A stretch of 64,000 nucleotides of DNA, from positions 160,001 to 224,000 of the forward strand of contig JBMFRC010000004.1 in the NCBI GenBank assembly GCA_049968235.1, in the 5' to 3' direction. This document shows, piece by piece, positions 34,996 through 55,439 of the stretch. Each line of letters opens with the position of its first letter. The first letter of the stretch is position 1. The position numbers and the translations under genes are program-made. The stretch comes from Candidatus Hydrogenedens sp. (GTDB lineage: Bacteria; Hydrogenedentota; Hydrogenedentia; Hydrogenedentales; Hydrogenedentaceae). The notes under the pieces are model-generated. The model was not told the origin of the DNA, searched no databases, and saw only the letters and a program-made list of their open reading frames with translations.

Positions 34996-35008
34996 ATATT
35001 AAAAGAAT

Positions 35009-38802: not shown

Positions 38803-38817
38803 AGTTATAATAAAGAT

Positions 38818-40281: not shown

Positions 40282-40297
40282 AAATAAAGGATAAACT

Positions 40298-41767
40298 ATG
40301 AGAACAAATATGTTCTTTTATTACTTCATAACAGGATTTCTATTCTCAATAATCTTTCAACAAATAGGAATAACCGAAGAAATATATAATATAGGAAACC
40401 GACGAGAAATTTTTATTGATAATAAATTAATTGATAAATTAGAGAATATATCATTTAAGTTATGTGAGCCTATTCCTGCTGAGAAGGTTTTATATTTTGA
40501 TAAACCGTGGGAGGGTAAACACAGTGGATATGTGACCTTAATCCATGACCAAGACATTTATCGCCTCTATTACAGAGGACTTCCTGTTTCAAAAGCCGAT
40601 GGCTCAAATGCAGAAGTTACCTGTTATGCAGAAAGCACAGATGGTATTCATTTCATTAAACCATCTTTGGGACTCTTTGAAATAGCAGGTTCAAAAGACA
40701 ATAATGTAATTCTTGCTAATGATCCACCTTTTTCACATAATTTTGCTCCTTTTATAGACGAAAAGCCCAACATTCCCAAGGAAGAACGATATAAAGCAGT
40801 GGCAGGGACTTTTGATAGTGGTTTATATACCTTCGTTTCCCCAGATGGAATCCGATGGCGGAAATTATCAGAGAAACCTATACTTAAAGGGGCATCATGG
40901 AAAGATTTTGCCTTTGATTCTCAAAATGTAGCTTTTTGGTCTATTTTAGAACAAAAGTATATTTTGTATTTTCGCACCTGGAATGGTCCCAATCAAGAAT
41001 ATCGTTGGGTAAGTCGAACAACCAGTTCAGATTTTTTAAATTGGGAAAAACCTGTAGTAATGGATAAAGGAAATGCACCATGGGAACATATATATACCAA
41101 TCAGACAATCCCTTATTTTAATGCTCCACACCTATATGTTTCAATATCAGCCCGATTTGTCCCTGGATGTAAAGTATTATTACAAGAAGAAATAAAATCC
41201 ATAGGGGTTGATATAGATTACAGTCATGATTGTTCCGATGTAATATTCATGAGTAGTCGAGGGGATAATATATATAGCCGATTTTTTTTAAATGCTTTCT
41301 TAAAACCTGAATATCCTTTAGAAAACTGGGTATCCAGAACCAATTATCCTGTGCGAGGCATTGTTCCTGCAGGTGATTATCAAATGGCTTTTTATATTCA
41401 AAAAAATTATGCACAGGACACTGCATATATTCAGCGATATTTACTTCGTCTGGATGGTTTTTCCTGTCTTTCCGCAGGATATGCAGAAGGTATTATTACC
41501 ACTGTGCCGTTAATTTTCAAAGGGGATAATCTGTTTCTTAACTTTGTTACCTCTGCTATAGGTTATATAAATGTAGAAGTTCAGGATATAAATGGAAATT
41601 CCATATCGGGATATGAGTTTAGTAATTCCATACCGTTGAAAGGAAATCGGATTAATTTCAAAGTATCATGGAATGATACTAATAATTTATCTTCATTGCA
41701 GGGAGCACCTATTCGATTATCTTTTAAGATGAAAGATGCAGATTTATATGCAATCCAATTTAAGTAA
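40298..41767 (+). CDS. secreted hypothetical protein (possible beta-propeller glycan-active enzyme)
   Basis: 489 aa. N-terminal hydrophobic signal/anchor. No motif I can assign with confidence. Occupies the operon between the rSAM and an esterase. Confidence 0.35.
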   Translation: MRTNMFFYYFITGFLFSIIFQQIGITEEIYNIGNRREIFIDNKLIDKLENISFKLCEPIPAEKVLYFDKPWEGKHSGYVTLIHDQDIYRLYYRGLPVSKADGSNAEVTCYAESTDGIHFIKPSLGLFEIAGSKDNNVILANDPPFSHNFAPFIDEKPNIPKEERYKAVAGTFDSGLYTFVSPDGIRWRKLSEKPILKGASWKDFAFDSQNVAFWSILEQKYILYFRTWNGPNQEYRWVSRTTSSDFLNWEKPVVMDKGNAPWEHIYTNQTIPYFNAPHLYVSISARFVPGCKVLLQEEIKSIGVDIDYSHDCSDVIFMSSRGDNIYSRFFLNAFLKPEYPLENWVSRTNYPVRGIVPAGDYQMAFYIQKNYAQDTAYIQRYLLRLDGFSCLSAGYAEGIITTVPLIFKGDNLFLNFVTSAIGYINVEVQDINGNSISGYEFSNSIPLKGNRINFKVSWNDTNNLSSLQGAPIRLSFKMKDADLYAIQFK

Positions 41768-41783
41768 TTAAGGAGGTATAACT

Positions 41784-42857
41784 ATGCTTTATAAAGCATT
41801 AACATTACTTCTTGTTTTTTTCTTAAACCAACAAAACATTTTAGAAAAACCTCCTTTTTATAAGGATAAGAATAATTTGCTTTATTACATTGGAAATGGA
41901 GGAGAAATTCATGAGATAACGAGTTTAAAAGAATGGGATATAAGGAAAAATCATATACTTCAAAATATGCTTCTTGTAATGGGTCCATTGCCAGACCGTT
42001 CCCATTTACCTCCTCTGGATGTGAAAGTTGAATCTACAGAGGATATGGGGTCATATTGGCGAAAGAAAATTACATTTAATGCTGAAAAAAATGATAGATT
42101 ACCTGCTTATTTGTTGGTACCTAAAAATGTTAATGGTAAAAGACCTGCTATTGTATGTTTACATCAAACTATAGATATTGGGAAAGCCGGTCCTGTGGGT
42201 ATCGGTGATTCTAAGAATCGACATCTGGCAAAAGAACTTGCTGAAAGAGGATATATTGTTATTGTCCCGGATTATCCGGGCTTTGGCGATTATAAGATTG
42301 ATGTATATTCAATGGGATATGCAAGTGCCACTGCGAAAGGTATTGGGAATCACCGTCGTTGCATTGACCTGCTACAAACAATGATTGAAGTGGATAAAGA
42401 TAAAATTGGCGCTATTGGACATTCTTTAGGTGGACACAACACTCTTTTTTTAGGGGCATTTGATAAACGGATTAAAGTAATGGTTACCAGTTGCGGTTTT
42501 ACCAGTATGAGAAAATATTATAATGGTGACTTAACAGGGTGGTCTCATAAAGGTTATATGCCAAGAATAAAAGAACAATATCAATGCAATCCGGACTTAC
42601 TCCCTTTTGATTTTACGGAAGTTCTCGGGATATTAGCTCCCCGCCCCGTATTTATTAACGCCCCCATACATGACAATAATTTTGAAGTAACAGGTGTAGA
42701 TGATTGCGTTAATTCTGCGCAAAGGATTTATACCCTTTATAAGGCAGAAGAAAACTTAAAAGGAATTCATCCGGATTGTGGACATGATTTCCCCCCTGAA
42801 ATCCGAGAAGAAGCCTATCGTTTTTTAGATAAACATTTAGGCTGGAACCCTAAATAG
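41784..42857 (+). CDS. alpha/beta-hydrolase (dienelactone hydrolase / acetyl-esterase-like) with signal peptide
   Basis: 357 aa. Nucleophile elbow GHSLGGHN. Catalytic His near the C-terminus (HPDCGHDFP). Confidence 0.7.
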   Translation: MLYKALTLLLVFFLNQQNILEKPPFYKDKNNLLYYIGNGGEIHEITSLKEWDIRKNHILQNMLLVMGPLPDRSHLPPLDVKVESTEDMGSYWRKKITFNAEKNDRLPAYLLVPKNVNGKRPAIVCLHQTIDIGKAGPVGIGDSKNRHLAKELAERGYIVIVPDYPGFGDYKIDVYSMGYASATAKGIGNHRRCIDLLQTMIEVDKDKIGAIGHSLGGHNTLFLGAFDKRIKVMVTSCGFTSMRKYYNGDLTGWSHKGYMPRIKEQYQCNPDLLPFDFTEVLGILAPRPVFINAPIHDNNFEVTGVDDCVNSAQRIYTLYKAEENLKGIHPDCGHDFPPEIREEAYRFLDKHLGWNPK

Positions 42858-42858
42858 A

Positions 42859-45072
42859 TTATCTGCCTTCACTTCCTAATTTTGCTGTTAAATATTCCTC
42901 AAAAAAAGACTCAATAAAAATTCCTTTATCTTTCAATTCATAATATTCCCGCAATGCTTTTTTATAATTCTTTTCTATGAAAATGGAATCAAGAAGATTT
43001 TTCCATGACCGGTATTGCCCATTTTCACATTGTATAGCGGAATAGAACCAATTTTTTGCTTCTTCCTCATTACCTTGAGATAGTGAAATAACACCTAAGG
43101 CAATTCGTGGAAGAGCAATATCAGGATTTATATGGATAATAAAGCGAAGTTTTTCTTGTGTGGTTTTCATATCGCCGTTTATCGATGTCATTATAGCATC
43201 AAAACATAGGTATGCCAATTTCAAATCTTTATCTAACAGAATCGCTTTTTGAAGGAAATATTCTTTATATCCCGGATTTATGTTTCTCTGACTTATCTGA
43301 TAATATCTCAGGGATTTTGTAAGTGTGGTGATATTTCCCCCACTTTTGAGAGTATTATATAAATTCTGAAATTGCAATTTTTGTAATGGGTCATTATTAA
43401 TCAATTTCTCAATTAGATACATTGCACACTCTTTGTGATTGGTTTCGACATTGGCAAGGGCAAAATCAGATATTGTAAATTTAAGGGAATCATTTTCAAA
43501 TTCTTTGCCTGCCTGATGAGAATATCCACCTCCTTGTTGGAATAGTACTTTATATAATCGGATAGGTTCTATACCGTATAAATCATAAGTTTCATATTGA
43601 ATTTGGTTGTTACTTAACAAACATTCCAATTCAGGGGAACCAAAATCGCCGAAATAAAAGGAGATATAAACAAACCATATTTTATCCGACAAACAACTTG
43701 ATTTTCTTTGAAATAGTTCATGAATAATTGGAATGAACGTGCTTATATCTTCAACAAAGGACACCGGTATTTTTTCATTTTTAAGATTAAATGTAAAGAC
43801 ATCTTTATTGATTGCTTGATACACAAATACAGGGGAGTTCTCTTTATCTGAATTTTGTTTTTCTATAAAATGAACTGTATCTTGCCAATTTGTTCTTTGG
43901 GGTCCCGGAAGAGTAATGATTAATTGATAACACAATATTAATATCAAGAAGATTAATAGTAAATAACCAATAATTTTGTGCTTATTTATTTTTATTAAAC
44001 TACCATAAAGCAAATATATTGCAAGGCTACAATATAAGGTATATCTTGGGAATATACATGGTCTCCATATAATAGACAGGACATATAATAATAACGGGGG
44101 GATTAAGATTATTAACAATAAAAGAACTATTCCATACCTTAATTTTAATTCACTTTCATTATCAACATGCCTAAAAACAAACCTAAAACTTAAAATCATC
44201 ACTATTGTAGTTATAACCAATAGAGAAGCATCAAATATAGAATGTATATTTATAAAATATTTGGGGATAACTTCTTCTATAACTCTTACCTGATATGTCA
44301 TTTTTACTGCGTCATCAGCAAATAAATCTCCAAGAAATTCAAATAGTGTCGGTATTTTAAACCAGGAAGACTGTTCCGATGAATAATAATGTATACTTGA
44401 TATATACACGATTGAGGGAATACTAATTAATATTTGAGATGCAATAAAGTAGTATTTCTTATAATCGCTTGTATAAAAAACATAAAATATCCATACTATT
44501 TCGATTATAAGGATAATTACAGCAAAAGGATGTGTCCATAATAAAAGGATGTTTATTAATGTTAAAGTAATCCAATTTTTTCTATTACGATTCTCAGAAT
44601 ATAAAAGCAAAAAATATATGGACAGAGTAAACAAAAGTGTTAATAAAACATACATTCGTATTCCCTGTCCAAAAAAACGATGAATCGGAGATATAGCGAA
44701 AAAAAATCCCGCCAACAAGCCCATCTTTTCTGAATTGAATCTTCGACCTATAAGGAATAGAACAGGGATAGTCATTACACTTAACAGAATGGATAGTAAA
44801 CGCAGACCTATAACAGAGGGGGAAACATAATGCCAGAAAAGGTATTCGAGTATATAATAAACAGGCATAGTGGCAGGGTCATAAAGAGGATTTAAGAAAA
44901 GGAATTCCTTTAATGATTCAGCATTAATATGCACTAAACTGGAATACTCATCCCACCAGACCGATTCATCTGAAATGTTATATATACGAATAACAAAAGC
45001 CAATAGGACAATAAGTGAACAATAAACTAACACGTGTATTTTATGTTTTTTTTGTCCTTTTATTTTTTCCAC
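42859..45072 (-). CDS. membrane GT-C glycosyltransferase (PMT/ArnT-like, DE-motif) with C-terminal TPR-like domain, subfamily B
   Basis: 737 aa. First-loop WWDEYSS (the DE motif of the PMT/ArnT/GT39-83 superfamily). About 11 TM helices. C-terminal soluble helical-repeat (TPR-like) region. Convergent with the esterase, with zero intergenic spacing. Confidence 0.7.
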   Translation of the reverse strand: MEKIKGQKKHKIHVLVYCSLIVLLAFVIRIYNISDESVWWDEYSSLVHINAESLKEFLFLNPLYDPATMPVYYILEYLFWHYVSPSVIGLRLLSILLSVMTIPVLFLIGRRFNSEKMGLLAGFFFAISPIHRFFGQGIRMYVLLTLLFTLSIYFLLLYSENRNRKNWITLTLINILLLWTHPFAVIILIIEIVWIFYVFYTSDYKKYYFIASQILISIPSIVYISSIHYYSSEQSSWFKIPTLFEFLGDLFADDAVKMTYQVRVIEEVIPKYFINIHSIFDASLLVITTIVMILSFRFVFRHVDNESELKLRYGIVLLLLIILIPPLLLYVLSIIWRPCIFPRYTLYCSLAIYLLYGSLIKINKHKIIGYLLLIFLILILCYQLIITLPGPQRTNWQDTVHFIEKQNSDKENSPVFVYQAINKDVFTFNLKNEKIPVSFVEDISTFIPIIHELFQRKSSCLSDKIWFVYISFYFGDFGSPELECLLSNNQIQYETYDLYGIEPIRLYKVLFQQGGGYSHQAGKEFENDSLKFTISDFALANVETNHKECAMYLIEKLINNDPLQKLQFQNLYNTLKSGGNITTLTKSLRYYQISQRNINPGYKEYFLQKAILLDKDLKLAYLCFDAIMTSINGDMKTTQEKLRFIIHINPDIALPRIALGVISLSQGNEEEAKNWFYSAIQCENGQYRSWKNLLDSIFIEKNYKKALREYYELKDKGIFIESFFEEYLTAKLGSEGR
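44741..45040. repeat. direct repeat copy A (5' end of the GT-C gene 42859-45072); near-identical to 52618-52900
   Basis: A run of roughly 110 bp appears identical in both copies (gacctataacagagggggaaacataatgccagaaaaggtattcgagtatataataaacaggcatagtggcagggtcataaagaggatttaagaaaaggaattcctttaatga). The flanks are roughly 85-90% similar. Copy B carries a short deletion in the 3' flank. Confidence 0.7.
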
Positions 45073-45329
45073 AAGAAAGCCTTAAATCACAAGTTATAAG
45101 ATAGAATTACATACTTACAGTTTAGCAATTGGGTGTTCGTGAATTCCATAGCCCCTTTGTAGCACGATGAATAAATATAAATGTTCAATATCAACAGGAA
45201 ATAAGACATTTATAAAAGTATATAGCAATAAGAAATAAGATAAAGCAGATAATATTAGAAAGCAAGAAGGAGAAATATATACTTGCGATTAAGTATCACC
45301 TAAATGCGAATACTATTCTGCAAAAACGA

Positions 45330-45995
45330 AAGATGATTAAAGAACCGAAAGAACCTATAAAACAATCGTAAAACTGTTGTATCTACGCCCGAGGATGATA
45401 ATGAAAGTAGAAGAATTGAGAAAACTTGATGATAAATCATCACGATCCCATAAACTACGAACCGTGTTCAATCTGAAGAATGACCAGAAAGCAGAGAATG
45501 TTAAAGCATTTTTAGATGAGTTGATGGCAGTCTATCCTTATCCAATACGAATGATACCGACCAATAATGGTAAGGAATCTACTAACTGCTTCTGCCGGGG
45601 TAGAAAACAACCCTCCGGTAAATATATCTTTGGGCACCTCTGTCAGAGACTCGTTATAGGATACTGACTGACTTTCCCTATACACCGGAAATAAATGGTT
45701 AGTAGAAGGTTTTAATGGTATAATAACAGAAATATTAAAACAACATTATTTCACGGATTACAAAAAGTCGATGGATAAATCAAACCAGTATACCTATTGT
45801 TATAATTATGTTCATAAACAACAATTATTAAACAACAAAAGCCCAGCAGAGGCATTAGGTAAATGGTATAATAAAAAATCTTTCCTTTTTCGCCCTCTTT
45901 TATTCTATCAAATTACATCTTTTCAAAACCTAGCAATTAATTACTATGAGAAAGAAAATCAGACGCAAAGTTATCCCTCAAACCTATTAAACTGA
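45330..45995 (+). pseudogene. degraded IS481/IS3-type transposase (rve integrase core) remnant
   Basis: Two short ORF fragments. LDDKSSRS...VKAFLDELMAVYPYPIRMIPTNNGKESTNCF matches the DDE core pattern (IDDHSR...AFL...VLTDNGxEF). ...YTYCYNYVHKQQLLNNKSPAEAL matches the conserved HxYNxxRPHxxL...TP C-terminus. There are multiple frame disruptions and no intact ORF. Confidence 0.55.
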
Positions 45996-48261
45996 GTACT
46001 TGTTGATACCGCATTTCCATTATCTTATTATTAGAGATAACAGGTTCTTTATGCAAAATCTTTCTAAGTTCTTGTTCACTCTTCCATTTATATGGGAAAC
46101 AGCCCAAGGGAAGTATACATTGCGAATCTTCCAATTTATGTTTCGCAAAATGGTTTAAGTAATGAGCTGGACAAAAACCATAGTTCATCAATTTTTCAGA
46201 TTCTTTGGCGAGAGATCTGTAGTCCTTACTCTTCAAAGCGTTCCAAATAGGTCTCATTGTATAGTAGAAAAATATATTTAACCTTTTGCACTTATTAAAT
46301 ACTTTTTCTGCCTCATCAGGATTAGTTTCCAAAAGAGATAATGCATATGGAAAACTTATCCAGGAGATAATATCTATTCCTGGCTTTAATAAATTTTCAA
46401 TCCAGCAAGATTTCCCAATGGATATCCAATCCATAGCCACCTGAATATACGAGCCTCTTTCAGGTGTCTCGTCTGGATTTATATAGTGGGACAAAATAAT
46501 CCCATCTAAAGAATTTACCTCATTTTCAAAGCATAGTTTAAGGTTGGCCATCAATTCCTCAGGAAGTTCCTTTTTTAACCGAAAGTCTGAAGTTTTTCCG
46601 TCAACAATATTCTTAAGGTTATCTTCTACTCGAAACCCGAAATACGCTAAACCTTCAAAAAATGGAAATTCCTTCACAGTAAAATAAATAAGGTGATTCT
46701 CCTCCCACTCTTTCCTTATTGACGGTGCTAATATCCCATATTCTGTCCTCAGAACGACCCACACCGTATATTCCGAAGGAAGATGCTTAATAAGGTATAC
46801 GAGGGCATCAGTGGCTAAATGGAGGGACCCCGCAGAAATTAAGACAGGCTCTTTCTGTTTTAGTCTGGAGCACCAGTGATAGTAAAAAATTGGTGTAATC
46901 TCCTGATGAGCAATAATGAATATATCTTTACCGCTTACATCTTGGGACAAAAGGTCTGTGCATTCATTCCAGGCAGTATATGGCTTCCCTTGTTGATACA
47001 TAAGATATTGAAGAAAAATATATCCCAGCACAACCAAAACCAATAATACCTTCAAAATTCTCTTAGAAGAAGCCCACCTAAAAACCAAATTAATCAGTAG
47101 CCCCCACCGAATAATCAAAGCAGGCAAAAGAAAGCGGAGTGTCATTACAGGAATCTTTGACACCAGGGTAAATCCTACAAAAAACAATGGCATCAAAAAC
47201 GCTAAACATATTAGCGTAAACTCCGGAAGTTCGTCATGTATTGTCTTATCCTTGATACGAGAAAACATCTCCACCAAAAAATAAAATAGTAGAATCAACT
47301 CAAAGACAACATTCCCGCCCTTAAGGGAATAAACCAATATTTTGTCGACAGCACTTGCAATCATATTAGTAAAATCACTATAGCCAAAGATGGAGAAAAT
47401 TAAAATTGCAAACGATGCAAATCGGGGAACTTCATCATCATAAATCCCAAACACATAATTAAAAATAGTAAATAAACAAATTTGAGGTGTATATGCTACA
47501 TTAGAAGGCATAGCAAACAAATCGAGATAAAGCAAAACTAAACAACCCATAAGTAGATTTAACAAACCGAGCATCAGAATTTTTTTCGACCTGTTATTGA
47601 GGAAAAAGTAAATGATAATCCCCGCCTCAAAGAAGAGTAACCACATATAAATATAATAGGTCAGCAGTAATAAGAGATTTACAAAAATTAGGAGTAAACA
47701 TTGAGATGTTCTTATTTCTCCTTCATTCCTTTTGATAAGATTAAAAAATAAATAAAGAGAGCAGATAGAAAGGGAAAAACCCGACGCATGAGGTCTTAAA
47801 AGCATACTGTACCATAAAAAAGTTGGAATAGTAGCGATTGTCATTGCGGATAAAAAACAAACAATTTCATTCCGGAAAAAAATCTTGAATAATCGGTAGC
47901 CAAAAATAACAGTAAATATACTTGCAATTATAGAGAACAATCTAAAAGATTCCGGAGATATACCCAGCAACTTCACAAATATATAAAATATAGTCAAATA
48001 AACAGGGGCAACTTCAGGTCCCTGCGTTCCCACCATTTGGATAAAAGTGTACAAATCCTGAACCTTCAAATATGCTACTCCCCAAAAATACTCATCAAAC
48101 CATATAGAAGGCTTTTGAGATAAGAACAAAATTAATAAGCAGGTGAGAACTACAAGAATACCTATCGGCAAATACCTTTTTTTTACTAATATCAAAGAGT
48201 TATCCATACCTATCTCCAAATTACATAATATCTCGAATTCGTATGAGGTCCATAATCTCAC
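45937..48261 (-). CDS. membrane GT-C glycosyltransferase (PMT/ArnT-like, DE-motif) with C-terminal helical domain, subfamily B
   Basis: 774 aa. First-loop IWFDEYFWG. Many TM helices across about 450 aa. C-terminal soluble domain homologous to that of the adjacent upstream gene (HKLEDSQCILPLGCFPY vs HKLEGSKCVLPIGVFPF). Confidence 0.6.
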   Translation of the reverse strand: MRLWTSYEFEILCNLEIGMDNSLILVKKRYLPIGILVVLTCLLILFLSQKPSIWFDEYFWGVAYLKVQDLYTFIQMVGTQGPEVAPVYLTIFYIFVKLLGISPESFRLFSIIASIFTVIFGYRLFKIFFRNEIVCFLSAMTIATIPTFLWYSMLLRPHASGFSLSICSLYLFFNLIKRNEGEIRTSQCLLLIFVNLLLLLTYYIYMWLLFFEAGIIIYFFLNNRSKKILMLGLLNLLMGCLVLLYLDLFAMPSNVAYTPQICLFTIFNYVFGIYDDEVPRFASFAILIFSIFGYSDFTNMIASAVDKILVYSLKGGNVVFELILLFYFLVEMFSRIKDKTIHDELPEFTLICLAFLMPLFFVGFTLVSKIPVMTLRFLLPALIIRWGLLINLVFRWASSKRILKVLLVLVVLGYIFLQYLMYQQGKPYTAWNECTDLLSQDVSGKDIFIIAHQEITPIFYYHWCSRLKQKEPVLISAGSLHLATDALVYLIKHLPSEYTVWVVLRTEYGILAPSIRKEWEENHLIYFTVKEFPFFEGLAYFGFRVEDNLKNIVDGKTSDFRLKKELPEELMANLKLCFENEVNSLDGIILSHYINPDETPERGSYIQVAMDWISIGKSCWIENLLKPGIDIISWISFPYALSLLETNPDEAEKVFNKCKRLNIFFYYTMRPIWNALKSKDYRSLAKESEKLMNYGFCPAHYLNHFAKHKLEDSQCILPLGCFPYKWKSEQELRKILHKEPVISNNKIMEMRYQQVLSLIGLRDNFASDFLSHSN

Positions 48262-50470
48262 CGTATCGGGTTTCTATTTTTTGATTCACTGTTTTATTAG
48301 GCTCTTTAAGCAAAATATCCCTTAATCTACTCTCACTATTTGTAGTGAATGGGAAAACACCTATGGGGAGAACACATTTTGAACCTTCTAACTTATGTTC
48401 CGCAAGATGATAAAACACATAAGCAAAAAAATAACCGTCATTTAGGAGCCTCTCAGATTCTTTCTTCAATAATGAATACTCATTCTTTTTAAGGTATTCC
48501 CAAATATTGGAAAACACAAAAGCAAAGTAAGGATTTTGCCCTTTTAGTCTCCGAAATATTTCCTCAGCCACATTCTGATTTTCCAACTCTGATAAAGCAT
48601 ACCCAAAAGTTACCCAAGAAGTTAGTTTCTGATATTGCTTTAAAAGAATTCTTGCCCAATCCGACTTTCCTAATCTTATAAGGTCGAGGATTATATGTAT
48701 AACATTAGTCATGCCTATTTCATCCCCAAAATCCCTATAGCGAGCCAATATAATTTTCTCTTCCTCCGTAAACTCATTCTTAAGATTAGCCTGGAGCAGG
48801 GGCACCAATGGACTAGACGAGTATAAGGATTCTTCTACATAAGGCGACTCTTCCTTCACCTTAAGATTTTCCTCGACGGAAAATATATAACACAAAATCC
48901 CTTCCCAAGAAGGGAATCTTGCCAAGGAGTATCTTAAATTGTATTCATCATAAACGGCGGTCATTTTTTGTTCGAAACTTGGGTCCCACTTAGTATTGTA
49001 TATAATGCATATCTTATGTTCAGGGGGAAGTTGCTTAACCAAATAGAGGAGGAAATCCAGAGAAGTATCTAAAGAATCCGAGGTAAAGATAGAAGGAAAC
49101 TTTCTCCTTGTCTTTTCCCGCCAATTGTATTTGAACACAGCACAATCCACATCTGAACCACAAATTATGATGTCATCTTCTCTGAGGTTTTCATTAACAT
49201 ATTGAACGCATCCTTCCCAATCCGTATAAATACTATTTGCTCTAAACAAAAGATATTGATGTAATGCCCATATTAAAATAACAGCAACAACAAACCACTT
49301 TAGTAGAACTTTTTTAGTATTCCAATTATTCAACATAATAAACAACCAACAGAACTTTGCAACATAACAAACTAAAATATATCGAGCCACCAGAACATTA
49401 CCACCAGAAATAAAAGACCAGCCGGCGAAAACAATAGGGCATACAAAGGCAAGTAAGTATATAAATAACAGTTTTTCATCGAATGTCCAAAAGCCTTTTA
49501 TCAATTTCCAAGTTGTAGCTAGGAACGAAGCGAAAAGTACCAACGCAATCAATCCGCCTCCAACATTTAAAACTACTAACGGAGCAACATCACATATCTT
49601 TTGAATCATCGGTGGAGGTACATTCGGAGCAATAATCGGCTGAATATAAACACTCCAAGAAACATAAGAAGGCACTTCAAAATTTCTCACCCCAAAAATT
49701 ATTTCCAACACCTCCAAAAATGAGTAATTTAAGGGAAGTGCCAAAAACTGGTTGCCATAAAAAACATAAACCAAATACATAAAACCTAAAGAAAAAACTA
49801 TCAGGTTGAGGATAGTAGGAAGTAAATACACAAATTTATCTCTAATTACCCTTAGGAAAAGCAAAAAAATCTCAACAGCAATAATCCAAATAAAGAGATA
49901 GTGTGATAAAACCATAAAAATATTAATTACAGGAAGAGAAAAAATAAAAAAAAGTGAATTTTTCCTCTCCGAAGACAAACAGCGAATAAGTAAATATAAT
50001 GAGATAAAAGCAAACATCTGAACTATGGAGTGATACCTCAAAGAAAAGGCATTCCACAAAAATAGGGGAAAGGATACAAATAATAAACTCGCGGCGAGAG
50101 CATATCTTCGTGGTAACAAACTTTTTGCAATAAGGTAGATAAAATTGGCACTCACAATGTTAAAAAGAACTATTACCCATCGAAAAGATTCCACTGAAAC
50201 ACCTAACCTTCCACAAATTAAATAAAGGAAAAAAAAATAAAGAGGAGGGCCCTGGGGGCCATAAGATAAGATATACAGATAAAAAGTAGTGAAACTCGGA
50301 ACATTTAGGTAGTCTAACCCTCCTAAATACTCATCTCCCCAAACAGACGGCTTTTGAGCGATTAATAATATAAATGTTAATGTTATAATCGACAATAATA
50401 AGTGTTCAATACTTCCTATCCGACGGGACAAGTTCCAATATTTACCTATATATATCATGTTAAAATCCAA
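48221..50470 (-). CDS. membrane GT-C glycosyltransferase (PMT/ArnT-like, DE-motif) with C-terminal helical domain, subfamily B, tandem paralog
   Basis: 749 aa. First-loop VWGDEYLGG. Same architecture as the downstream neighbour. The 3' end overlaps the next gene by 41 nt. Confidence 0.6.
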   Translation of the reverse strand: MDFNMIYIGKYWNLSRRIGSIEHLLLSIITLTFILLIAQKPSVWGDEYLGGLDYLNVPSFTTFYLYILSYGPQGPPLYFFFLYLICGRLGVSVESFRWVIVLFNIVSANFIYLIAKSLLPRRYALAASLLFVSFPLFLWNAFSLRYHSIVQMFAFISLYLLIRCLSSERKNSLFFIFSLPVINIFMVLSHYLFIWIIAVEIFLLFLRVIRDKFVYLLPTILNLIVFSLGFMYLVYVFYGNQFLALPLNYSFLEVLEIIFGVRNFEVPSYVSWSVYIQPIIAPNVPPPMIQKICDVAPLVVLNVGGGLIALVLFASFLATTWKLIKGFWTFDEKLLFIYLLAFVCPIVFAGWSFISGGNVLVARYILVCYVAKFCWLFIMLNNWNTKKVLLKWFVVAVILIWALHQYLLFRANSIYTDWEGCVQYVNENLREDDIIICGSDVDCAVFKYNWREKTRRKFPSIFTSDSLDTSLDFLLYLVKQLPPEHKICIIYNTKWDPSFEQKMTAVYDEYNLRYSLARFPSWEGILCYIFSVEENLKVKEESPYVEESLYSSSPLVPLLQANLKNEFTEEEKIILARYRDFGDEIGMTNVIHIILDLIRLGKSDWARILLKQYQKLTSWVTFGYALSELENQNVAEEIFRRLKGQNPYFAFVFSNIWEYLKKNEYSLLKKESERLLNDGYFFAYVFYHLAEHKLEGSKCVLPIGVFPFTTNSESRLRDILLKEPNKTVNQKIETRYGEIMDLIRIRDIM

Positions 50471-50773
50471 TCATCATCATTATCATAGAGTATAAAACCC
50501 CAACTAAATAGGAGTAATATATGAAGAGAAGTTTTAACAAATCAATTCAATAGTACTATACAACAAATCGTAAATATCCATCTATAAAACTACTAATAAC
50601 AACTAAGTTCAAAAAAATTTCAATTAGAGTGGTAAGAACATAAAACAAAAATCTGTCAGTTTGTAATGGTAGTATTTGGAGGATGAAAATTATAATACAC
50701 GTTTTGTAGTATAATAAAGGAATATATTGTGTTATGTTTGTGTTTTATTGAAAAAAAGGGTAAAAGATAGTTT

Positions 50774-52312
50774 ATGAATGTTTTATTAGTTTCACTCCAA
50801 AAAAATTTTAGTATTATTGGCTTAAAACTCTTACACGAGATATTACGCAGAGAGGGCTTTAATTCTAACATTTTATACATACCGGGCTTCCCACAGGATT
50901 CAAAAAATCTCGATTCTCTAAAAGGATATATAAAAGATTTTTCACCAGAATGGATAGGGGTAAGTCTTACATCAACAGAGTATAAATATGCAAGGGATTT
51001 TACATTATTTATGAAAAAAAACTTTGACATCCCGGTAATATGGGGTGGAGTAGAACCTACTGTTTCGCCCGAGCACTGTATAGATTATGCTGACTATGTG
51101 TGTATAGGAGAAGGGGAGAAAGCAGTTATAGATATTTCAAATGTTATAAAAAATGGTAAAAAGTTAGAAAATATTAACAATTTAGCATTCAGAGATGGAA
51201 AAGAAATTCATAGAAATCCATTAAACCCTTTAATTGAGAACTTGGATGAGTTACCTTTTATACCTCGTGTACCCTCTAACTCATTCTTGTTATACAAAGG
51301 TAAATTACTAGAACTAACTCATAAACTGGTTAGAAAAAATACAGTACTCCACGCAAGCATTTACAGAGTCATAAATAGCCGCGGATGTCCAATGCACTGT
51401 ACTTTTTGCATAAATTCCTTCTACTTTGATTTGTATCCCACCTATCATTTTAGGACTGCTTCACCTAAACACATAATAGAAGGTATAGTCCGTGGTCTGC
51501 AGGAGCCACTACCAGTTGCAGTTATATCATTTTTAGATGAAAACTTCTTCGCCCGCAAAAAAGAAGACTTGGACATGTTCTTCAAACTATACAAGGAAAG
51601 GGTAAACATCCCGTATATCATCTATTCTTCCCCGAATTACATCACCGATGAAAATCTTGAAAAGGCAATTGATTCAGGACTACGAGGTATTCAAATAGGT
51701 TTACAGAGCGGAAGTGAATCAGTCTGCAAAAACATTTACAAAAGGACTGTCTCCATCAAAAAATTCTTGGAAAGTGTAGAAAGAGTAAAAAGATATGATG
51801 TTGTCCCTAATATTGATGTCATCTGCGATAACCCATTCGAGACACTCGAAGATGACTTAGCGACAATCGAAGTTTTGTGCAAAATTCCAAAACCTTACTT
51901 TTTCTATCTGCTTTCTTTAACATTCTTTGAAGGTATCCCTCTGAGAAAAATAGCTGAAGAAAAAAAACCCGAAGTTCTTCATGACCCACATGTAAAAGAT
52001 ATCCTCATAACCAAACCTACAACCGTAAACAGACTAAAACATTTAGCTGGCATATCTCCGTCTAAAATTGTCATGTTCTTCAGCAAGTGGTATAAGAAAA
52101 ATCCTGATTCAGTAATACTAAAAATACTTGTAGAAATTTGCTTTTGGTTCACACTAATTTTCATCCAACCATTTGTATTTCTCTGGATACTTTATATCTT
52201 TAGCAAAAAGTCTATAAAGCAAATGTTAAAGTATCTTTACTATTTTGTCGATTTCCGTATATTCAAAACCTTCAACTTCTGGCGAACTTCTAAAGACACA
52301 GCCCAAACATAA
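50774..52312 (+). CDS. B12-binding domain radical SAM protein (class B rSAM) with C-terminal hydrophobic segment
   Basis: 512 aa. B12-binding N-terminus (WIGVSLTSTEY...VIWGGVEPTVSPEH). Canonical CxxxCxxC (RGCPMHCTFC). C-terminal TM-like helix (ICFWFTLIFIQPFVFLWILYIF). Confidence 0.8.
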   Translation: MNVLLVSLQKNFSIIGLKLLHEILRREGFNSNILYIPGFPQDSKNLDSLKGYIKDFSPEWIGVSLTSTEYKYARDFTLFMKKNFDIPVIWGGVEPTVSPEHCIDYADYVCIGEGEKAVIDISNVIKNGKKLENINNLAFRDGKEIHRNPLNPLIENLDELPFIPRVPSNSFLLYKGKLLELTHKLVRKNTVLHASIYRVINSRGCPMHCTFCINSFYFDLYPTYHFRTASPKHIIEGIVRGLQEPLPVAVISFLDENFFARKKEDLDMFFKLYKERVNIPYIIYSSPNYITDENLEKAIDSGLRGIQIGLQSGSESVCKNIYKRTVSIKKFLESVERVKRYDVVPNIDVICDNPFETLEDDLATIEVLCKIPKPYFFYLLSLTFFEGIPLRKIAEEKKPEVLHDPHVKDILITKPTTVNRLKHLAGISPSKIVMFFSKWYKKNPDSVILKILVEICFWFTLIFIQPFVFLWILYIFSKKSIKQMLKYLYYFVDFRIFKTFNFWRTSKDTAQT

Positions 52313-52617
52313 GAAAATCAACCTGGTCTCAAGCACAATTAGAATATTCGATAACGACAAGTGTATTGGGTACCACGAAGAAATTCAAAATTTAGCAAGT
52401 TAATATCTAAAACTAAAAAAACTCCTTTCATCAGTCTGCGAATAATCAATTCATTTAATTAAAAAGTATTCAGCCCACTTTATTACCACTTCACAATTAA
52501 AATAAAGAATATATATCCAATATTAAGAGGACGATATGAGAATTTAAGAAACGATAGAATTTGAAGGAGTTTACTACCCACCTTCTGCTGAGTAAAAAAA
52601 ACAGCCCTCAGGAAAAT

Positions 52618-52900
52618 ATATCTTCGACCTATAAGAAATTGGACATAGATAGTAAACGCAGACCTATAACAGAGGGGGAAACATAATGCCAGAAAAGGTA
52701 TTCGAGTATATAATAAACAGGCATAGTGGCAGGGTCATAAAGAGGATTTAAGAAAAGGAATTCCTTTAATGACCCAGCATTTATATGAACTAAACTGGAA
52801 TACTCATCCCACCACCCTGATTCATCTGAAGTTTTATATATACAAATAACAAAAGCCAATAAAATAATAAGCAAACAAAAAACAAACACTTGTATATTAT
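52618..52900. repeat. direct repeat copy B (inside the chimeric pseudogene)
   Basis: See copy A. The two copies have the same orientation and lie about 7.8 kb apart. They bracket the IS remnant, two GT-C paralogs and a B12-rSAM gene. Confidence 0.7.
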
Positions 52901-53401
52901 GTCTCTTAGGTAATAATCCGGGATTTTGGATTATTTCCCCTGTCTTATCCTTCCAGTAAATCCCATTAATATTCTGTAATGACTCTTTTTCCGGAAAAGT
53001 TTCTATAATCTGCTTTAATGCAATTTCGCCTTCCCCGGGACCAGAATATCTATATCTACATCGTCAAAGACACCTTTTCGGACTGCAGAAGCATGTGGTC
53101 ATCCTACAATAATCCATGCAGAAGGACAGGCTGTTCTAAGCATAGGAATTAATGAAGGCAATAAATAGGCAAAGGTTGTAAAAGTAGATATACCTATAAT
53201 ATCGGGATTAAATTCTTTAATACGCCCGCATAATTCTTCTACGCTATAATTTTCTAATCTTTGATTTAATATGCCTATATCAATATCTCTTAACGCCCTT
53301 CGGAGATACGCCGAAAGATAAAGTAAACCCATAGGAGGTGTGGCTAATGGATATAAAGGCCTTCGTAAACCCAGATTAACTAAAAACAATCTTTTCTTCA
53401 T
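52629..53401 (-). pseudogene. chimeric pseudogene: 5' part of a B12-rSAM (B12-binding domain) fused in-frame to the 5' end of a subfamily-B GT-C gene; disrupted by an in-frame TGA and a -1 frameshift
   Basis: Minus-strand reading 53401->53099 gives MKKRLFLVNL...IGISTFTTF...AWIIVG then TGA. The intact paralog has IVGGPHxx here, so GGA->TGA. Continuing gives PHASAVRKGVFDDVDIDILV. Then a 1-nt loss in a G-run (ccgggg) shifts into GEGEIALKQIIETFPEKESLQNINGIYWKDKTGEIIQNPGLLPKRHNIQ. This runs directly into VFVFCLLIILLAFVICIYKTSDESGWWDEYSSLVHINAGSLKEF..., the N-terminus of the 42859-45072 GT-C protein. It terminates at 52629. Confidence 0.6.
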
Positions 53402-53451
53402 TTATCTCGGACCTAAATAGTTAAAATTATACACCAAATTTTTTTATCATT

Positions 53452-54624
53452 TCAGATAGCATGGAAAAATTTTTCATAGGTATGTGCTGGTATAGCATGA
53501 AATTTACATAAAATCCATACCAACCATTTAAATTTTCGAAGTAAGGGATAATACGAGGGATAGTCTGTAAAGTACTTATTGGGTGCATTAATAATTGCCT
53601 CAAATTCTTCACGACTTATACCTTGTTTTCTTAAACAATGTTCAACTCGTTCTTCATCTTCAAAAAATGGAACTTCTCGTAACGCTCTTAATGCGGATTC
53701 GCGAGATATTACACCCGTTCTGACTTTTGCAGATAGTTCTACTACACGCCAGTCAAAACCGAATTTTCTCCGGGCATAATAGTAAACCAGAGTAAACAGT
53801 TCATTATCCAGGTGATGTTGCCCTGTATCCTGCCAATCAAATTTCTCTTTTAATAATTTCTCTACTTTTTCCCCCGTATCATCATAGTAATTGGTAATAT
53901 TTATTACACGGATTCTTTTCCAGAGAATCCAATAAATCATATCCTTTAATTCTACATTTTGAAAATGCTTTAACGGTATTGTGCAATATCGTTTGACAAT
54001 AGCACGCGTATATTTCCCGTCAATGTAGTTCCATTTCAATGGCGTTATCCCTTCTTCACGGAAGGAATGACTTAAAATAATGTAATGGACATTCTCGGCA
54101 ACTGCAGTTCGATATAAACTACTTGCAATGCCTATATCATCTGTTAGGTCAATATAAGGGACACAGGCGCGGATAGTTGCATTAGTCAATTCTCGTGATT
54201 CAGGCCAGTCCATAATTATTGTATGTAATTCTACATCTAATTTATCGCAGAGTTTGGCAAGGTTTGTTTTGGCAATTTCCGAGTCCCAACCGTTATCAAA
54301 ATGAACAGCCAGAGGACGCAATTTCATTATTTCCTTAACATAATATAAACAATAAGAAGTATCTCTCCCACCACTGACCCCAACTATACAATCGTATTTT
54401 TTTTCTTTTCCATCGTTTCTTATCTTCTCTGCAATTTTTTGCAATATCATTGCTCCTTTTTCGCCGGTAGGAAAACGCCTATCCAATTTATCATGTATGT
54501 GGCAGAAATTACATATACCTTGATGATCTAAATAAACTCCCGGAATAGATGTATCCATAACACATCGTTTGCATAATGTTTTATCTTCATTTTGTCGAAA
54601 CATATATCTACCAACTCTATTCAT
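53452..54624 (-). CDS. N-acetyl sugar amidotransferase, PP-loop ATPase family (WbuX/PseA-like)
   Basis: 390 aa. N-terminal Cys cluster (CKRCVMD...CNFC). PP-loop SGGxDS (CIVGVSGGRDTSY). Immediately followed by HisF- and HisH-like genes, the conserved acetamidino-sugar trio. Confidence 0.75.
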   Translation of the reverse strand: MNRVGRYMFRQNEDKTLCKRCVMDTSIPGVYLDHQGICNFCHIHDKLDRRFPTGEKGAMILQKIAEKIRNDGKEKKYDCIVGVSGGRDTSYCLYYVKEIMKLRPLAVHFDNGWDSEIAKTNLAKLCDKLDVELHTIIMDWPESRELTNATIRACVPYIDLTDDIGIASSLYRTAVAENVHYIILSHSFREEGITPLKWNYIDGKYTRAIVKRYCTIPLKHFQNVELKDMIYWILWKRIRVINITNYYDDTGEKVEKLLKEKFDWQDTGQHHLDNELFTLVYYYARRKFGFDWRVVELSAKVRTGVISRESALRALREVPFFEDEERVEHCLRKQGISREEFEAIINAPNKYFTDYPSYYPLLRKFKWLVWILCKFHAIPAHTYEKFFHAI

Positions 54625-55439
54625 AATCGTGATAATTCTAAATCAATCGGTTTTTTGGGGTCTCTTTTCCGAACATGTTCAGGTCGAAAATGCTCTAATA
54701 ATTGTTCTTCTGTAGGATAAGTTATTAATACTGTTCTTCGAGGACCGTAAAAAAGGAAGAATGCCCCACATGCTACTGCAGAAACTCCCGAAAAATAATA
54801 GGCATCCGCTAAATCTTTTACAGAACCTGCACCTCCGCAAGCAATTACAGGAATCTGGACATTATCTACAATCACTTTTATTAATTCCAAATCATATCCT
54901 TCAAGAGTCCCATCTCTATCAATACTTGTAATTAATATTTCACCTGCTCCTTCTTCCTCCGCTCTTTTCGCCAATTCGATTGGATTCAATCCTGTTGATT
55001 TTCGTCCTCCATGTGTGAATACTTCATATTTGCCATTTACTCTACGGACATCAATGGATACTACAATACATTGTCTTCCAAACTGTTCAGCGGATTTTTT
55101 TAATAAATCGGGAACCTCAATTACAGAAGTGTTAAGGACCACTCTATCAGCCCCTGCATTCAGTAATTCTCTTATGGTATTAATATCACGAATTCCGCCT
55201 CCAACTGTAAACGGCATGGATGTTTCCGCAGATATTTGTTTCACTATCTCTATTTCTGGAGAGCGATTTTCAAGTGTTGCTACAATATCTAACAAGATTA
55301 ATTCATCTACATTATGTTGATTAAAAACACGAGCTGCATTAATGGGACAACCCACATATTTCGGATTGGTAAATTGGATTGTTTTTTCCAATCCCCAATG
55401 TCGTAATAAAAGGACAGGTATCACTCTAACTTTTAGCAT
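54621..55439 (-). CDS. imidazole glycerol phosphate synthase cyclase-subunit paralog (HisF-like, WbuZ-type) of a glycan amidotransferase module
   Basis: 272 aa. HisF (beta/alpha)8 motifs (RVIPVLLL...DELILLDI...FTVGGGIR...ADRVVLNTS...IVVSIDV...GAGEILITSIDRDGT). Its context, not the his operon, indicates the LPS/glycan role. Confidence 0.8.
   Translation of the reverse strand: MLKVRVIPVLLLRHWGLEKTIQFTNPKYVGCPINAARVFNQHNVDELILLDIVATLENRSPEIEIVKQISAETSMPFTVGGGIRDINTIRELLNAGADRVVLNTSVIEVPDLLKKSAEQFGRQCIVVSIDVRRVNGKYEVFTHGGRKSTGLNPIELAKRAEEEGAGEILITSIDRDGTLEGYDLELIKVIVDNVQIPVIACGGAGSVKDLADAYYFSGVSAVACGAFFLFYGPRRTVLITYPTEEQLLEHFRPEHVRKRDPKKPIDLELSRL

What the first reader, a model, noticed from the sequence alone, without database searches (positions are those of the whole stretch)
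52629..53401. Chimeric rSAM::GT-C pseudogene with nonsense and homopolymer-frameshift lesions, forming a 280-bp direct repeat with an intact paralog 7.8 kb away
The minus strand encodes the first roughly 170 aa of a B12-binding rSAM, most similar to the 38818 gene. This is fused in-frame to the first roughly 85 aa of the 42859-45072 GT-C gene. The reading frame is broken by TGA in place of the conserved GGA (IVG*PH vs IVGGPH) and by a 1-nt loss in a G-run.

The GT-C-derived part is a near-identical direct repeat of 44741-45040. Together these indicate recent duplication, fusion and deletion among island genes.

The direct repeats flank the IS remnant, two GT-C paralogs and the second B12-rSAM. 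They could mediate excision or amplification of that block, acting as a paralog-shuffling mechanism that varies the surface glycan.
Basis: seen in the sequence. Interest (0 to 1): 0.6.

Follow-up and report, generated by a model that had tools for sequence, protein, structure and literature searches.

The report
Broken gene stump beside inserted cassette
This is a dead gene fragment, the front end of a vitamin-B12-dependent enzyme gene joined to the front end of a sugar-transferase gene, left when a roughly 7.7-kb block of extra sugar-coat genes came to lie inside the enzyme gene in an uncultured Hydrogenedens bacterium; it is a real but ordinary scar of gene-cluster reshuffling.

Summary
On the minus strand, 53401-52913 encodes codons 1-165 (the B12-binding domain) of a radical SAM gene. 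It carries a TGA at 53099-53101 and a 1-nt loss in the G-run at 53033-53036.

Two further assemblies of the same Candidatus Hydrogenedens population share the fusion, the frameshift and the 25-bp deletion. One of them still reads GGA where the window has TGA. The lesions are therefore real, and the nonsense mutation is the youngest.

The interpretation needs revision. The rSAM part is not a copy of an island gene. It is the 5' stump of a distinct gene, here called rSAM_X, which is intact between the WbuX amidotransferase and the GT-C gene in three related species. Its last 18 codons survive at 45178-45125, just upstream of the intact GT-C. rSAM_X was therefore split by a block made of the GT-C fragment, a spacer, a B12-rSAM, two GT-C genes and an IS remnant.

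Outside a 125-nt identical patch, the two GT-C copies are about 15% diverged. That pattern indicates gene conversion, not a fresh duplication. No evidence supports excision, amplification or programmed shuffling. The feature is ordinary.

The parts
52913..53401 (-). 5' stump of rSAM_X: codons 1-165, the B12-binding domain of a class B radical SAM gene
   Evidence: Pfam PF02310 at E 4e-15. It is 89% aa identical to the N-terminus of the intact 479-aa ortholog in L012. Omega versus L012 is 0.04.
53099..53101 (-). TGA nonsense codon replacing a conserved GGA (Gly101)
   Evidence: It reads GGA in GCA_049969095.1 and TGA in the window and in GCA_049971155.1. TGA is the stop codon of 12 of 41 large ORFs in the window.
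53033..53036 (-). G4 run, inferred to be G5 originally; the 1-nt loss shifts the frame inside the VPGEGE motif
   Evidence: It is identical in all three assemblies.
52620..52912 (-). C': a copy of codons 8 to about 112 of a GT-C gene, joined in frame to the rSAM_X stump. It has a 25-bp deletion at 52645/52644, which brings TAG at 52629-52631 into frame.
52648..52772 (-). 125-nt patch identical to 44792-44916, flanked on both sides by sequence about 15% diverged; a gene-conversion tract
   Evidence: P about 5e-6.
52313..52619 (.). Spacer of unknown origin between C' and the stop codon of rSAM_50774
   Evidence: It matches nothing in the window or in the 67 fetched loci apart from the two same-population assemblies. 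No terminator-like or above-chance promoter-like sites.
45937..52312 (.). Three-gene module: GT-C 45937-48261 (-), GT-C 48221-50470 (-) and B12-rSAM 50774-52312 (+)
   Evidence: Pfam. The same module occurs at 78-82% nt identity in a different genomic context in GCA_017880035.1. rSAM homologs elsewhere have other right flanks, and similarity always ends at the stop codon at 52312.
45377..45900 (+). Degenerate, frameshifted and 5'-truncated remnant of a DDE (rve-type) transposase
   Evidence: Weak Pfam rve_3 hit at E 3e-4, below the gathering score.
45122..45178 (-). 3' stump of rSAM_X: the last 18 codons plus the stop (IFIHRATKGLWNSRTPNC*)
   Evidence: tblastn against intact rSAM_X of L012 and L013: 83% over aa 462-479; alignment. 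Read by eye from that alignment, the differences from L012 are mostly synonymous (about 8 synonymous against 3 non-synonymous codons).
42859..45072 (-). Intact GT-C gene, ortholog of the GT-C that follows rSAM_X or WbuX in relatives. Its 5' end, 44739-45056, is the other arm of the repeat.
53452..54603 (-). WbuX-family N-acetyl sugar amidotransferase, the conserved upstream neighbour used as the anchor
   Evidence: NCBIfam TIGR03573 at 218.7 bits, cutoff 203.2.

Best explanation
The feature is a non-functional scar. The ancestral order on the minus strand was hisH, hisF2, wbuX, rSAM_X (a roughly 479-aa class B radical SAM gene) and then a GT-C glycosyltransferase. Three related species still have this order.

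In the window's lineage rSAM_X stayed under purifying selection until recently. Its middle, codons 166 to about 459, was then replaced by a block of about 7.7 kb. The block consists of a truncated GT-C 5' fragment (C'), a 307-nt spacer, a B12-rSAM gene, two GT-C genes and an IS that is now degenerate. This left a 5' stump fused in frame to C' at 53401-52620, and an 18-codon 3' stump at 45178-45125 in front of the resident GT-C gene.

C' was already about 15% diverged from the resident copy when the two were joined. One of the two copies therefore comes from another lineage or from an old paralog. Most simply, C' arrived with the block. The in-frame join is chance, with odds of 1 in 3.

Later events were:
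- a 125-nt gene-conversion patch between the two copies;
- the G-run frameshift and the 25-bp deletion, both shared by all three sampled strains;
- last, the GGA-to-TGA mutation, seen in two of the three strains.

Shown: the anatomy, the ancestral order, the split of rSAM_X, the reality and relative order of the lesions, and the mosaic divergence. Inferred: the single-event replacement, the foreign origin of C', and any role for the IS.
For: **Ancestral order.** L012, L013 and L015 carry an intact rSAM_X of 479-486 aa between wbuX and the GT-C ortholog. The L012 N-terminus is 89% identical to the window's stump.

**rSAM_X is split.** Its C-terminal 18 codons match window 45178-45125, directly upstream of GT-C 42859.

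**Inactivation was recent.**
- The stump versus L012 gives pN 0.072 and omega 0.04. The intact wbuX gives pN 0.067 and omega 0.046.
- pN to the outgroup L013 is the same for the window (0.117) and for L012 (0.118).
- The 3' stump keeps the conserved protein sequence, whereas the L006 and L011 remnants have decayed.

**The copies were already diverged.** In the first 129 nt, C versus C' shows 19 differences, C versus L011 shows 23, and C' versus L011 shows 18. In the next 127 nt, C versus C' shows 1 difference, while each differs from L011 by about 20.

**The identical patch is not chance.** Max-chi-square p is about 0.002, and the 125-nt run has P about 5e-6.

**The block is a portable module.**
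- The two GT-C genes plus the rSAM occur at 78-82% nt identity in a different context in GCA_017880035.1.
- rSAM homologs in L063-L067 have other flanks.
- A weak rve_3 remnant lies at one end of the block.

**The lesions are real and can be ordered.** Three assemblies agree, and GGA is retained in one.
Against: - No donor locus with a 'C' + spacer + module' arrangement was found. The spacer matches nothing.
- The IS remnant scores below Pfam's threshold and is 5'-truncated. No inverted repeats or target duplications were seen, so a role for the IS is conjecture.
- A two-step alternative gives the same present-day structure and cannot be excluded. In it C' is the resident copy, and the intact GT-C, with its upstream rSAM_X 3' end, is the incoming allele. 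A separate 1-kb deletion would then have made the fusion.
- The window's 3' stump begins within about 3 nt of the 3' breakpoint of the independent, older rSAM_X deletion in L006 and L011. This coincidence is unexplained.
- The three assemblies appear to come from one sequencing project and one population, so they are only partly independent.
Confidence: 0.75

Rival explanations
1. The chimera arose by recent local duplication, fusion and deletion among island genes. The roughly 290-bp direct repeats now serve as a substrate for RecA-mediated excision or amplification of the 7.86-kb block. This would be a paralog-shuffling switch that varies the surface glycan.
For: - The repeats are direct and share a 125-nt perfect tract, long enough for homologous recombination.
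- The conversion patch shows the two copies have physically interacted.
- A crossover would place GT-C 42859, from its internal GTG at 45033/52889, directly after wbuX and the stump. That resembles the arrangement in relatives without the block.
Against: - The copies are about 15% diverged outside the patch, while the rSAM_X stump shows no neutral decay. This excludes a duplication made at or after the fusion.
- The rSAM part is a resident gene stump, not a duplicate.
- All three assemblies carry the block next to the pseudogene and next to GT-C 42859.
- Relatives without the block retain the rSAM_X 3' stump and a different junction, so they are not excision products.
- No site-specific recombinase or other dedicated machinery is present.
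Confidence: 0.08
2. Assembly or sequencing artefact. On this view the TGA, the G-run loss or the chimeric joins are errors of a metagenome assembly, and the true genome has an intact gene or a different arrangement.
For: - The source is a MAG.
- One contig of a sister assembly appears to end inside the repeat, judging from a partial 669-aa GT-C product.
Against: - Two other assemblies reproduce the fusion, the frameshift, the 25-bp deletion and both flanks without gaps, while differing by 3-4 SNPs elsewhere.
- The TGA/GGA difference is a clean SNP between assemblies.
- The copies differ at 25 positions, so they are not a collapsed repeat.
- The alternative resolution of the repeat graph would give a deletion plus a circle, not a linear chromosome. 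This last point is inference.
Confidence: 0.02
3. C' is a silent donor cassette. Gene conversion from it, or into it, diversifies the N-terminal membrane segment of the expressed GT-C, in the manner of pilS/pilE or vls systems.
For: - A conversion tract between a non-expressed copy and the expressed gene is present.
- The diverged part encodes 12 aa differences in about 45 aa.
Against: - There is only one cassette.
- The expressed copy is identical in the two assemblies that cover it: 3 SNPs in 12.4 kb, none in the repeat.
- The converted tract made the copies identical rather than different.
- The cassette is decaying, with a 25-bp deletion.
Confidence: 0.03
4. The pieces are functional small proteins: a stand-alone cobalamin-binding domain of 100-128 aa and an 86-aa membrane peptide. 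The public annotation treats them as two genes.
For: Both ORFs are called as proteins in NCBI records, as 'cobalamin-dependent protein' and 'hypothetical protein'.
Against: - ORF length is polymorphic within the population (100 versus 128 aa) because of the nonsense SNP.
- The 128-aa form ends in frameshifted residues.
- The radical SAM core is absent.
- Intact orthologs are 479 aa.
- Promoter-like sites occur at chance level.
Confidence: 0.03

Closest known systems
Gene remnants and IS scars in polysaccharide (O-antigen or capsule) gene clusters, left by cassette gain, loss or replacement (own knowledge of E. coli, Shigella and Salmonella rfb loci and of pneumococcal cps loci; not tested here)
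   Same: A variable glycan-synthesis island in which a block of transferase and modification genes sits next to a degenerate transposase and truncated resident genes. Related strains and species show alternative gene contents at the same conserved flanks.
   Different: The organism is an uncultured Hydrogenedentota bacterium. The genes are GT-C/PMT_2-type transferases and class B radical SAM enzymes rather than the usual Wzx/Wzy sets. The scar includes an in-frame chimera of two unrelated gene fronts.
Class B (cobalamin-dependent) radical SAM enzymes
   Same: The stump carries the N-terminal B12-binding domain (PF02310). Its intact orthologs carry the radical SAM core with a CxxxCxxC motif.
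   Different: The window copy lacks the whole radical SAM core. No NCBIfam equivalog reaches its cutoff, so the substrate of the intact enzyme is unknown.
Ectopic gene conversion between a pseudogene and its functional paralog
   Same: An internal identical tract of 125 nt is bounded on both sides by sequence about 15% diverged.
   Different: It is a single event with no evidence of recurrence or of functional consequence. Which copy was the donor is unknown.
Repeat-mediated (RecA-dependent) deletion or amplification between direct repeats
   Same: Direct repeats of about 290 nt with a 125-nt perfect core flank a 7.86-kb block.
   Different: No deletion or amplification product was observed in the three assemblies. 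This remains a potential, not a demonstrated activity.

Membership tests
Class B radical SAM (B12-binding rSAM) | N-terminal cobalamin-binding domain (Pfam PF02310) | tested here: met
   E 4e-15, 56.1 bits against a cutoff of 32.1, on the repaired stump.
Class B radical SAM (B12-binding rSAM) | Radical SAM core (PF04055) with the CxxxCxxC cluster motif | tested here: not met
   There is no PF04055 hit on the window fragment, because the sequence ends at codon 165. The intact orthologs contain CPYQCMWC. The window copy is a remnant of a member, not a functional member.
GT-C fold glycosyltransferase (PMT_2 / ArnT-like) | Multi-pass N-terminal membrane domain matching PMT_2 | tested here: inconclusive
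   The intact 42859 gene scores 21.2 bits, below the gathering score of 26.1. Paralogs 48221, 32812 and 35009 pass. The fragment covers only codons 8 to about 112 and gives no hit.
Pseudogene (decayed remnant of a once-functional gene) | Truncation and frame disruption relative to intact orthologs | tested here: met
   The fragment has 165 of 479 codons, a nonsense codon, a -1 frameshift and a 25-bp deletion. Intact orthologs are in L012, L013 and L015.
Phase-variable contingency locus (homopolymer slippage) | A long homopolymer tract whose length varies among strains | tested here: not met
   The tract is only G4 and is identical in all three assemblies.
Stop-codon recoding (TGA read as Gly or Sec) | TGA used as a sense codon in the genome | tested here: not met
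   TGA terminates 12 of 41 large ORFs. The site is a GGA/TGA polymorphism between strains.
Composite transposon or IS-bounded cassette | IS copies or inverted repeats at both ends, with target-site duplication | tested here: not met
   There is one degenerate rve_3-like remnant at one end only. No inverted repeats were found in 36-56 kb.
Repeat-mediated excision or amplification switch | Both states, block present and block absent or amplified, joined at the repeat, observed in the population | tested here: not met
   All three assemblies have the block. Relatives without the block have a different junction. Read-level frequencies could not be tested with these tools.
Silent-cassette gene-conversion variation (pilS- or vls-like) | Multiple silent cassettes and sequence variation in the expressed copy among clones | tested here: not met
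   There is a single cassette. The expressed copy is identical in the second assembly.

The most novel reading that the evidence does not exclude
The two repeat arms could act as a working recombination switch. A crossover would drop the three-gene module (two GT-C genes and a B12-rSAM) and reconnect the resident GT-C to the wbuX operon. Conversion would exchange N-terminal transferase sequence. A Hydrogenedens population could then toggle or vary its surface glycan by homologous recombination at a pseudogene-derived repeat.
Probability: 0.05. Interest if true: 0.5.

Novelty: new member of a known kind. Interest (0 to 1): 0.18.

Why it matters
The main value is for annotation and evolutionary bookkeeping.

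- Two ORFs deposited as separate proteins, a 'cobalamin-dependent protein' of 100 aa and an 86-aa hypothetical, are pieces of one dead chimera.
- The locus gives a dated example of how a glycan island in an uncultured phylum is remodelled. A resident gene is split by a portable block of transferase and rSAM genes, gene conversion follows between old and new copies, and decay proceeds stepwise with a visible order across strains.
- The analysis also brings out a conserved wbuX, class B rSAM and GT-C triad in Hydrogenedentota, which may be worth biochemical attention.

It does not reveal a new mechanism.

Tried and rejected
1. Exact look-ups of the 390-aa WbuX and the 272-aa HisF2 ORFs failed. 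For WbuX the public annotation uses a different start codon; the 383-aa form was found.
It therefore gave no test of block presence or absence in other samples.
3. I tested whether the sequence upstream of the window's 3' stump (45180-45250) is the same rSAM_X deletion junction as in L011 and L006. That would have made the right half an L011-type allele.
   - A tblastn extension was suggestive.
   - Local and anchored alignments were no better than shuffles: z = 0.5, against z = 9.8 for the positive control. The idea was rejected.
4. TGA recoding as Gly was rejected.
5. Homopolymer phase variation was rejected, because the G4 run is invariant.
6. The spacer 52313-52619 and the region 45179-45376 were compared at DNA and translated level with all fetched loci. 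Nothing matched beyond the same-population contigs.
7. Promoter and terminator scans gave nothing above chance.
8. Two literature searches gave nothing specific to this locus or to Hydrogenedentes glycan islands.
9. A search for closer homologs of the GT-C fragment found only the fragment itself.

Full report
**Observation**

Reading the minus strand from 53401, one frame gives MKKRLFLVNLGLRRPLYPLATPPMG...AWIIVG and then TGA at 53099-53101. The sequence continues PHASAVRKGVFDDVDIDILVPG. After a 1-nt loss in the GGGG run at 53033-53036, it continues in the next frame as GEGEIALKQIIETFPEKESLQNINGIYWKDKTGEIIQNPGLLP. This runs directly into KRHNIQVFVFCLLIILLAFVICIYKTSDESGWWDEYSSLVHINAGSLKEFLF...GLRLLSMSNFL*.

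- The first 165 residues match Pfam B12-binding at E 4e-15, with no radical SAM core.
- They are 34% identical to the rSAM at 38818 and 29% identical to the rSAM at 50774.
- The remainder is 85% identical to residues 8-95 of the GT-C gene at 42859-45072.
- At DNA level, 52645-52907 matches 44789-45051 at 92% identity, with a spacing of 7856 nt.
A 25-bp deletion is followed by 25 more homologous bases down to 52620, after which similarity ends.

The only corrections are small coordinate shifts and this one extra lesion.

**Source organism and reality of the lesions**

The 100-aa first piece is deposited at NCBI as 'MAG: cobalamin-dependent protein [Candidatus Hydrogenedens sp.]', on a 254-kb contig and on a second contig.

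- The second assembly, GCA_049971155.1, covers window 50361-55323 with 4 SNPs and no gaps. None of the SNPs lies in the pseudogene.
- Another contig of the same assembly covers 34908-47312 with 3 SNPs.
- A third assembly, GCA_049969095.1, covers 51500-54408 with 3 SNPs. It shares the frameshift, the fusion and the 25-bp deletion, but reads GGA where the window has TGA. Its ORF is therefore 128 aa instead of 100 aa.

The lesions are real. The fusion, the frameshift and the 25-bp deletion predate the common ancestor of the three strains. The nonsense mutation is a younger SNP that is still segregating. TGA is an ordinary stop codon in this genome, ending 12 of 41 large ORFs. The G-run is too short and too invariant for phase variation.

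**What the rSAM part is**

The upstream neighbour is a WbuX-family N-acetyl sugar amidotransferase, scoring 218.7 bits on TIGR03573 (cutoff 203.2). It is preceded by AglZ/HisF2 and HisH genes. I used this amidotransferase as an anchor to collect orthologous loci from related Hydrogenedentota.

- In three species (L012, L013, L015) an intact class B radical SAM gene of 479-486 aa lies between wbuX and the GT-C ortholog. I call this gene rSAM_X.
- The L012 protein is 89% identical to the window's 165-aa stump and contains the CPYQCMWC cluster motif.
- Other relatives (L006-L011, L014) lack rSAM_X. L006 and L011 retain decayed remnants of its first roughly 30-46 codons and its last roughly 20 codons in the spacer between wbuX and the GT-C gene. 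That is an older, independent internal deletion.
- L015 is the most distant of these relatives, at 79% WbuX identity. By parsimony, the order wbuX, rSAM_X, GT-C is therefore ancestral.

So the window's rSAM fragment is not a copy of the 38818 or 50774 genes. It is the resident rSAM_X.

**rSAM_X is split**

The last 18 codons of intact rSAM_X (IFIHRATKGLWKSQTINC in L012) match window 45178-45125 (IFIHRATKGLWNSRTPNC, then a stop). This lies immediately upstream of the intact GT-C gene, followed by the same short spacer as in relatives. Read on the minus strand, the window has this order:

1. wbuX
2. rSAM_X codons 1-165
3. the GT-C 5' copy C' (52912-52620)
4. a 307-nt spacer with no match anywhere
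5. the rSAM at 50774, on the opposite strand
6. GT-C 48221
7. GT-C 45937
8. a degenerate, 5'-truncated rve-type transposase remnant (weak rve_3 hit, E 3e-4)
9. the rSAM_X 3' stump
10. the resident GT-C 42859

The three-gene module is portable. It occurs at 78-82% nt identity in an unrelated context in GCA_017880035.1. Homologs of its rSAM gene have yet other right-hand neighbours. In every case similarity ends exactly at the stop codon at 52312.

**Timing**

The 5' stump compared with L012 gives pN 0.072, pS 0.70 and omega 0.04. This is indistinguishable from the intact wbuX next door (pN 0.067, omega 0.046). Its non-synonymous distance to the outgroup L013 (0.117) equals that of L012 (0.118).

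By eye on the alignment, the 3' stump differs from L012 mostly at synonymous positions, about 8 synonymous against 3 non-synonymous codons. The same segment is visibly decayed in L006 and L011. rSAM_X was therefore under selection until shortly before the three sampled strains diverged.

The two GT-C copies tell a different story.

- In the first 129 nt of the repeat, C versus C' shows 19 differences, C versus the L011 ortholog shows 23, and C' versus L011 shows 18. This is a trichotomy at species-level depth.
- In the next 127 nt, C and C' differ at 1 site, while each differs from L011 at about 20 sites.
- After the 25-bp indel the copies differ again, at 3 of the remaining aligned positions.
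- Mismatch clustering is significant, with a max-chi-square permutation p of about 0.002. A 125-nt perfect run has P about 5e-6.

Suppose C' had been copied from C when rSAM_X was broken. The 15% divergence outside the patch would then require at least about 7.6% neutral change. That would have raised the stump's pN to roughly 0.19 against L013, which is about 4 standard errors above the observed value. This last step is my inference.

It follows that the copies were already diverged when they were joined. One of them comes from another lineage or from an old paralog. The identical core is a later gene-conversion tract.

**Best explanation**

A single replacement event, or a small number of events, put the block into rSAM_X. 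That left the 5' stump fused to C', in frame by chance, and the 3' stump in front of the resident GT-C. Conversion between C and C' followed, and then stepwise decay.

I cannot distinguish two variants. In one, C' arrived with the block. In the other, C' is resident and the GT-C gene, with its upstream rSAM_X 3' end, is the incoming allele, with a separate 1-kb deletion making the fusion. No donor locus was found.

I tested whether the right half is an L011-type deletion allele and rejected it. One coincidence remains unexplained. The window's 3' stump starts within about 3 nt of the 3' breakpoint of the L006 and L011 deletion.

The repeats are direct and have a 125-nt perfect core. RecA-mediated deletion of the 7.86-kb block is therefore chemically possible. 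The conversion tract also shows that the arms have interacted.

However, all three assemblies carry the block on both sides. Relatives that lack the block still keep the rSAM_X 3' stump, which a repeat crossover would remove. No dedicated recombination machinery is present either. The 'paralog-shuffling mechanism' is an untested possibility, not a finding. The metagenome scan that might have found block-less variants returned only distant relatives.

**Verdict**

This is a real, well-resolved pseudogene scar in a variable glycan island of an uncultured bacterium. It is ordinary in kind. Its use is to correct the annotation and to illustrate cassette insertion followed by gene conversion. Interest is low.

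Noticed in passing
L006:11150-11432 and L011:2946-3254, compared with window 45122-45200: Relatives lacking rSAM_X carry an older internal deletion, of roughly codons 30-47 to 459. Its 3' breakpoint coincides within about 3 nt with the start of the window's rSAM_X 3' stump, although the two events appear independent. This may be a fragile or microhomology site, or shared history that I could not demonstrate.
   Followed up: partly
window 45937-52312; L005:5133-11539; L063-L067: The module of two GT-C genes plus a divergently transcribed B12-rSAM recurs at 73-82% nt identity in other Hydrogenedens-like genomes. Its flanks there are quite different: FlgM on one side with a methyltransferase on the other, or thioredoxin, ArsR and ArsP. 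This suggests a portable glycan-modification cassette.
   Followed up: partly
L012:10001-14888, L013:636-5523, L015:10001-14922, L028:10001-15155: A WbuX amidotransferase followed by a class B radical SAM gene and a GT-C transferase is a recurring triad across Hydrogenedentota. In L028 the rSAM is of the 50774 type (36% identity). This hints at a functional coupling that has not been described biochemically.
   Followed up: no
window 40298-41767: This 489-aa ORF is conserved at 63-88% aa identity in all related loci, between the hydrolase and rSAM_38818. It has no Pfam match even at E <= 1.
   Followed up: no
window 52629-52889 and 53099-53401: Public annotation lists the two pieces of the pseudogene as separate proteins, MGC8737932.1 (hypothetical) and MGC8737933.1 (cobalamin-dependent protein), rather than as one pseudogene.
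   Followed up: yes
window 45033-45150; L006:11339-11417: The start of GT-C 42859 is ambiguous. Three products are on record: 737 aa from the GTG at 45072, 724 aa from the GTG at 45033 (which lies inside the repeat), and a partial 669-aa product. Gene calls in relatives give 763 aa, starting inside the rSAM_X 3' remnant.
   Followed up: partly
window 48221-48261: The ORFs of the two module GT-C genes overlap by 41 nt as listed (TTG and GTG starts). The true starts are uncertain. Neither exact ORF translation is in the protein collection.
   Followed up: no
L003:1-1309 and L004:102-1387: The closest homologs of rSAM_X found by the protein search (47-48% identity), on short metagenome contigs, are themselves split into two or three ORFs. 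This reflects either low-coverage assembly errors or further pseudogenes.
   Followed up: no
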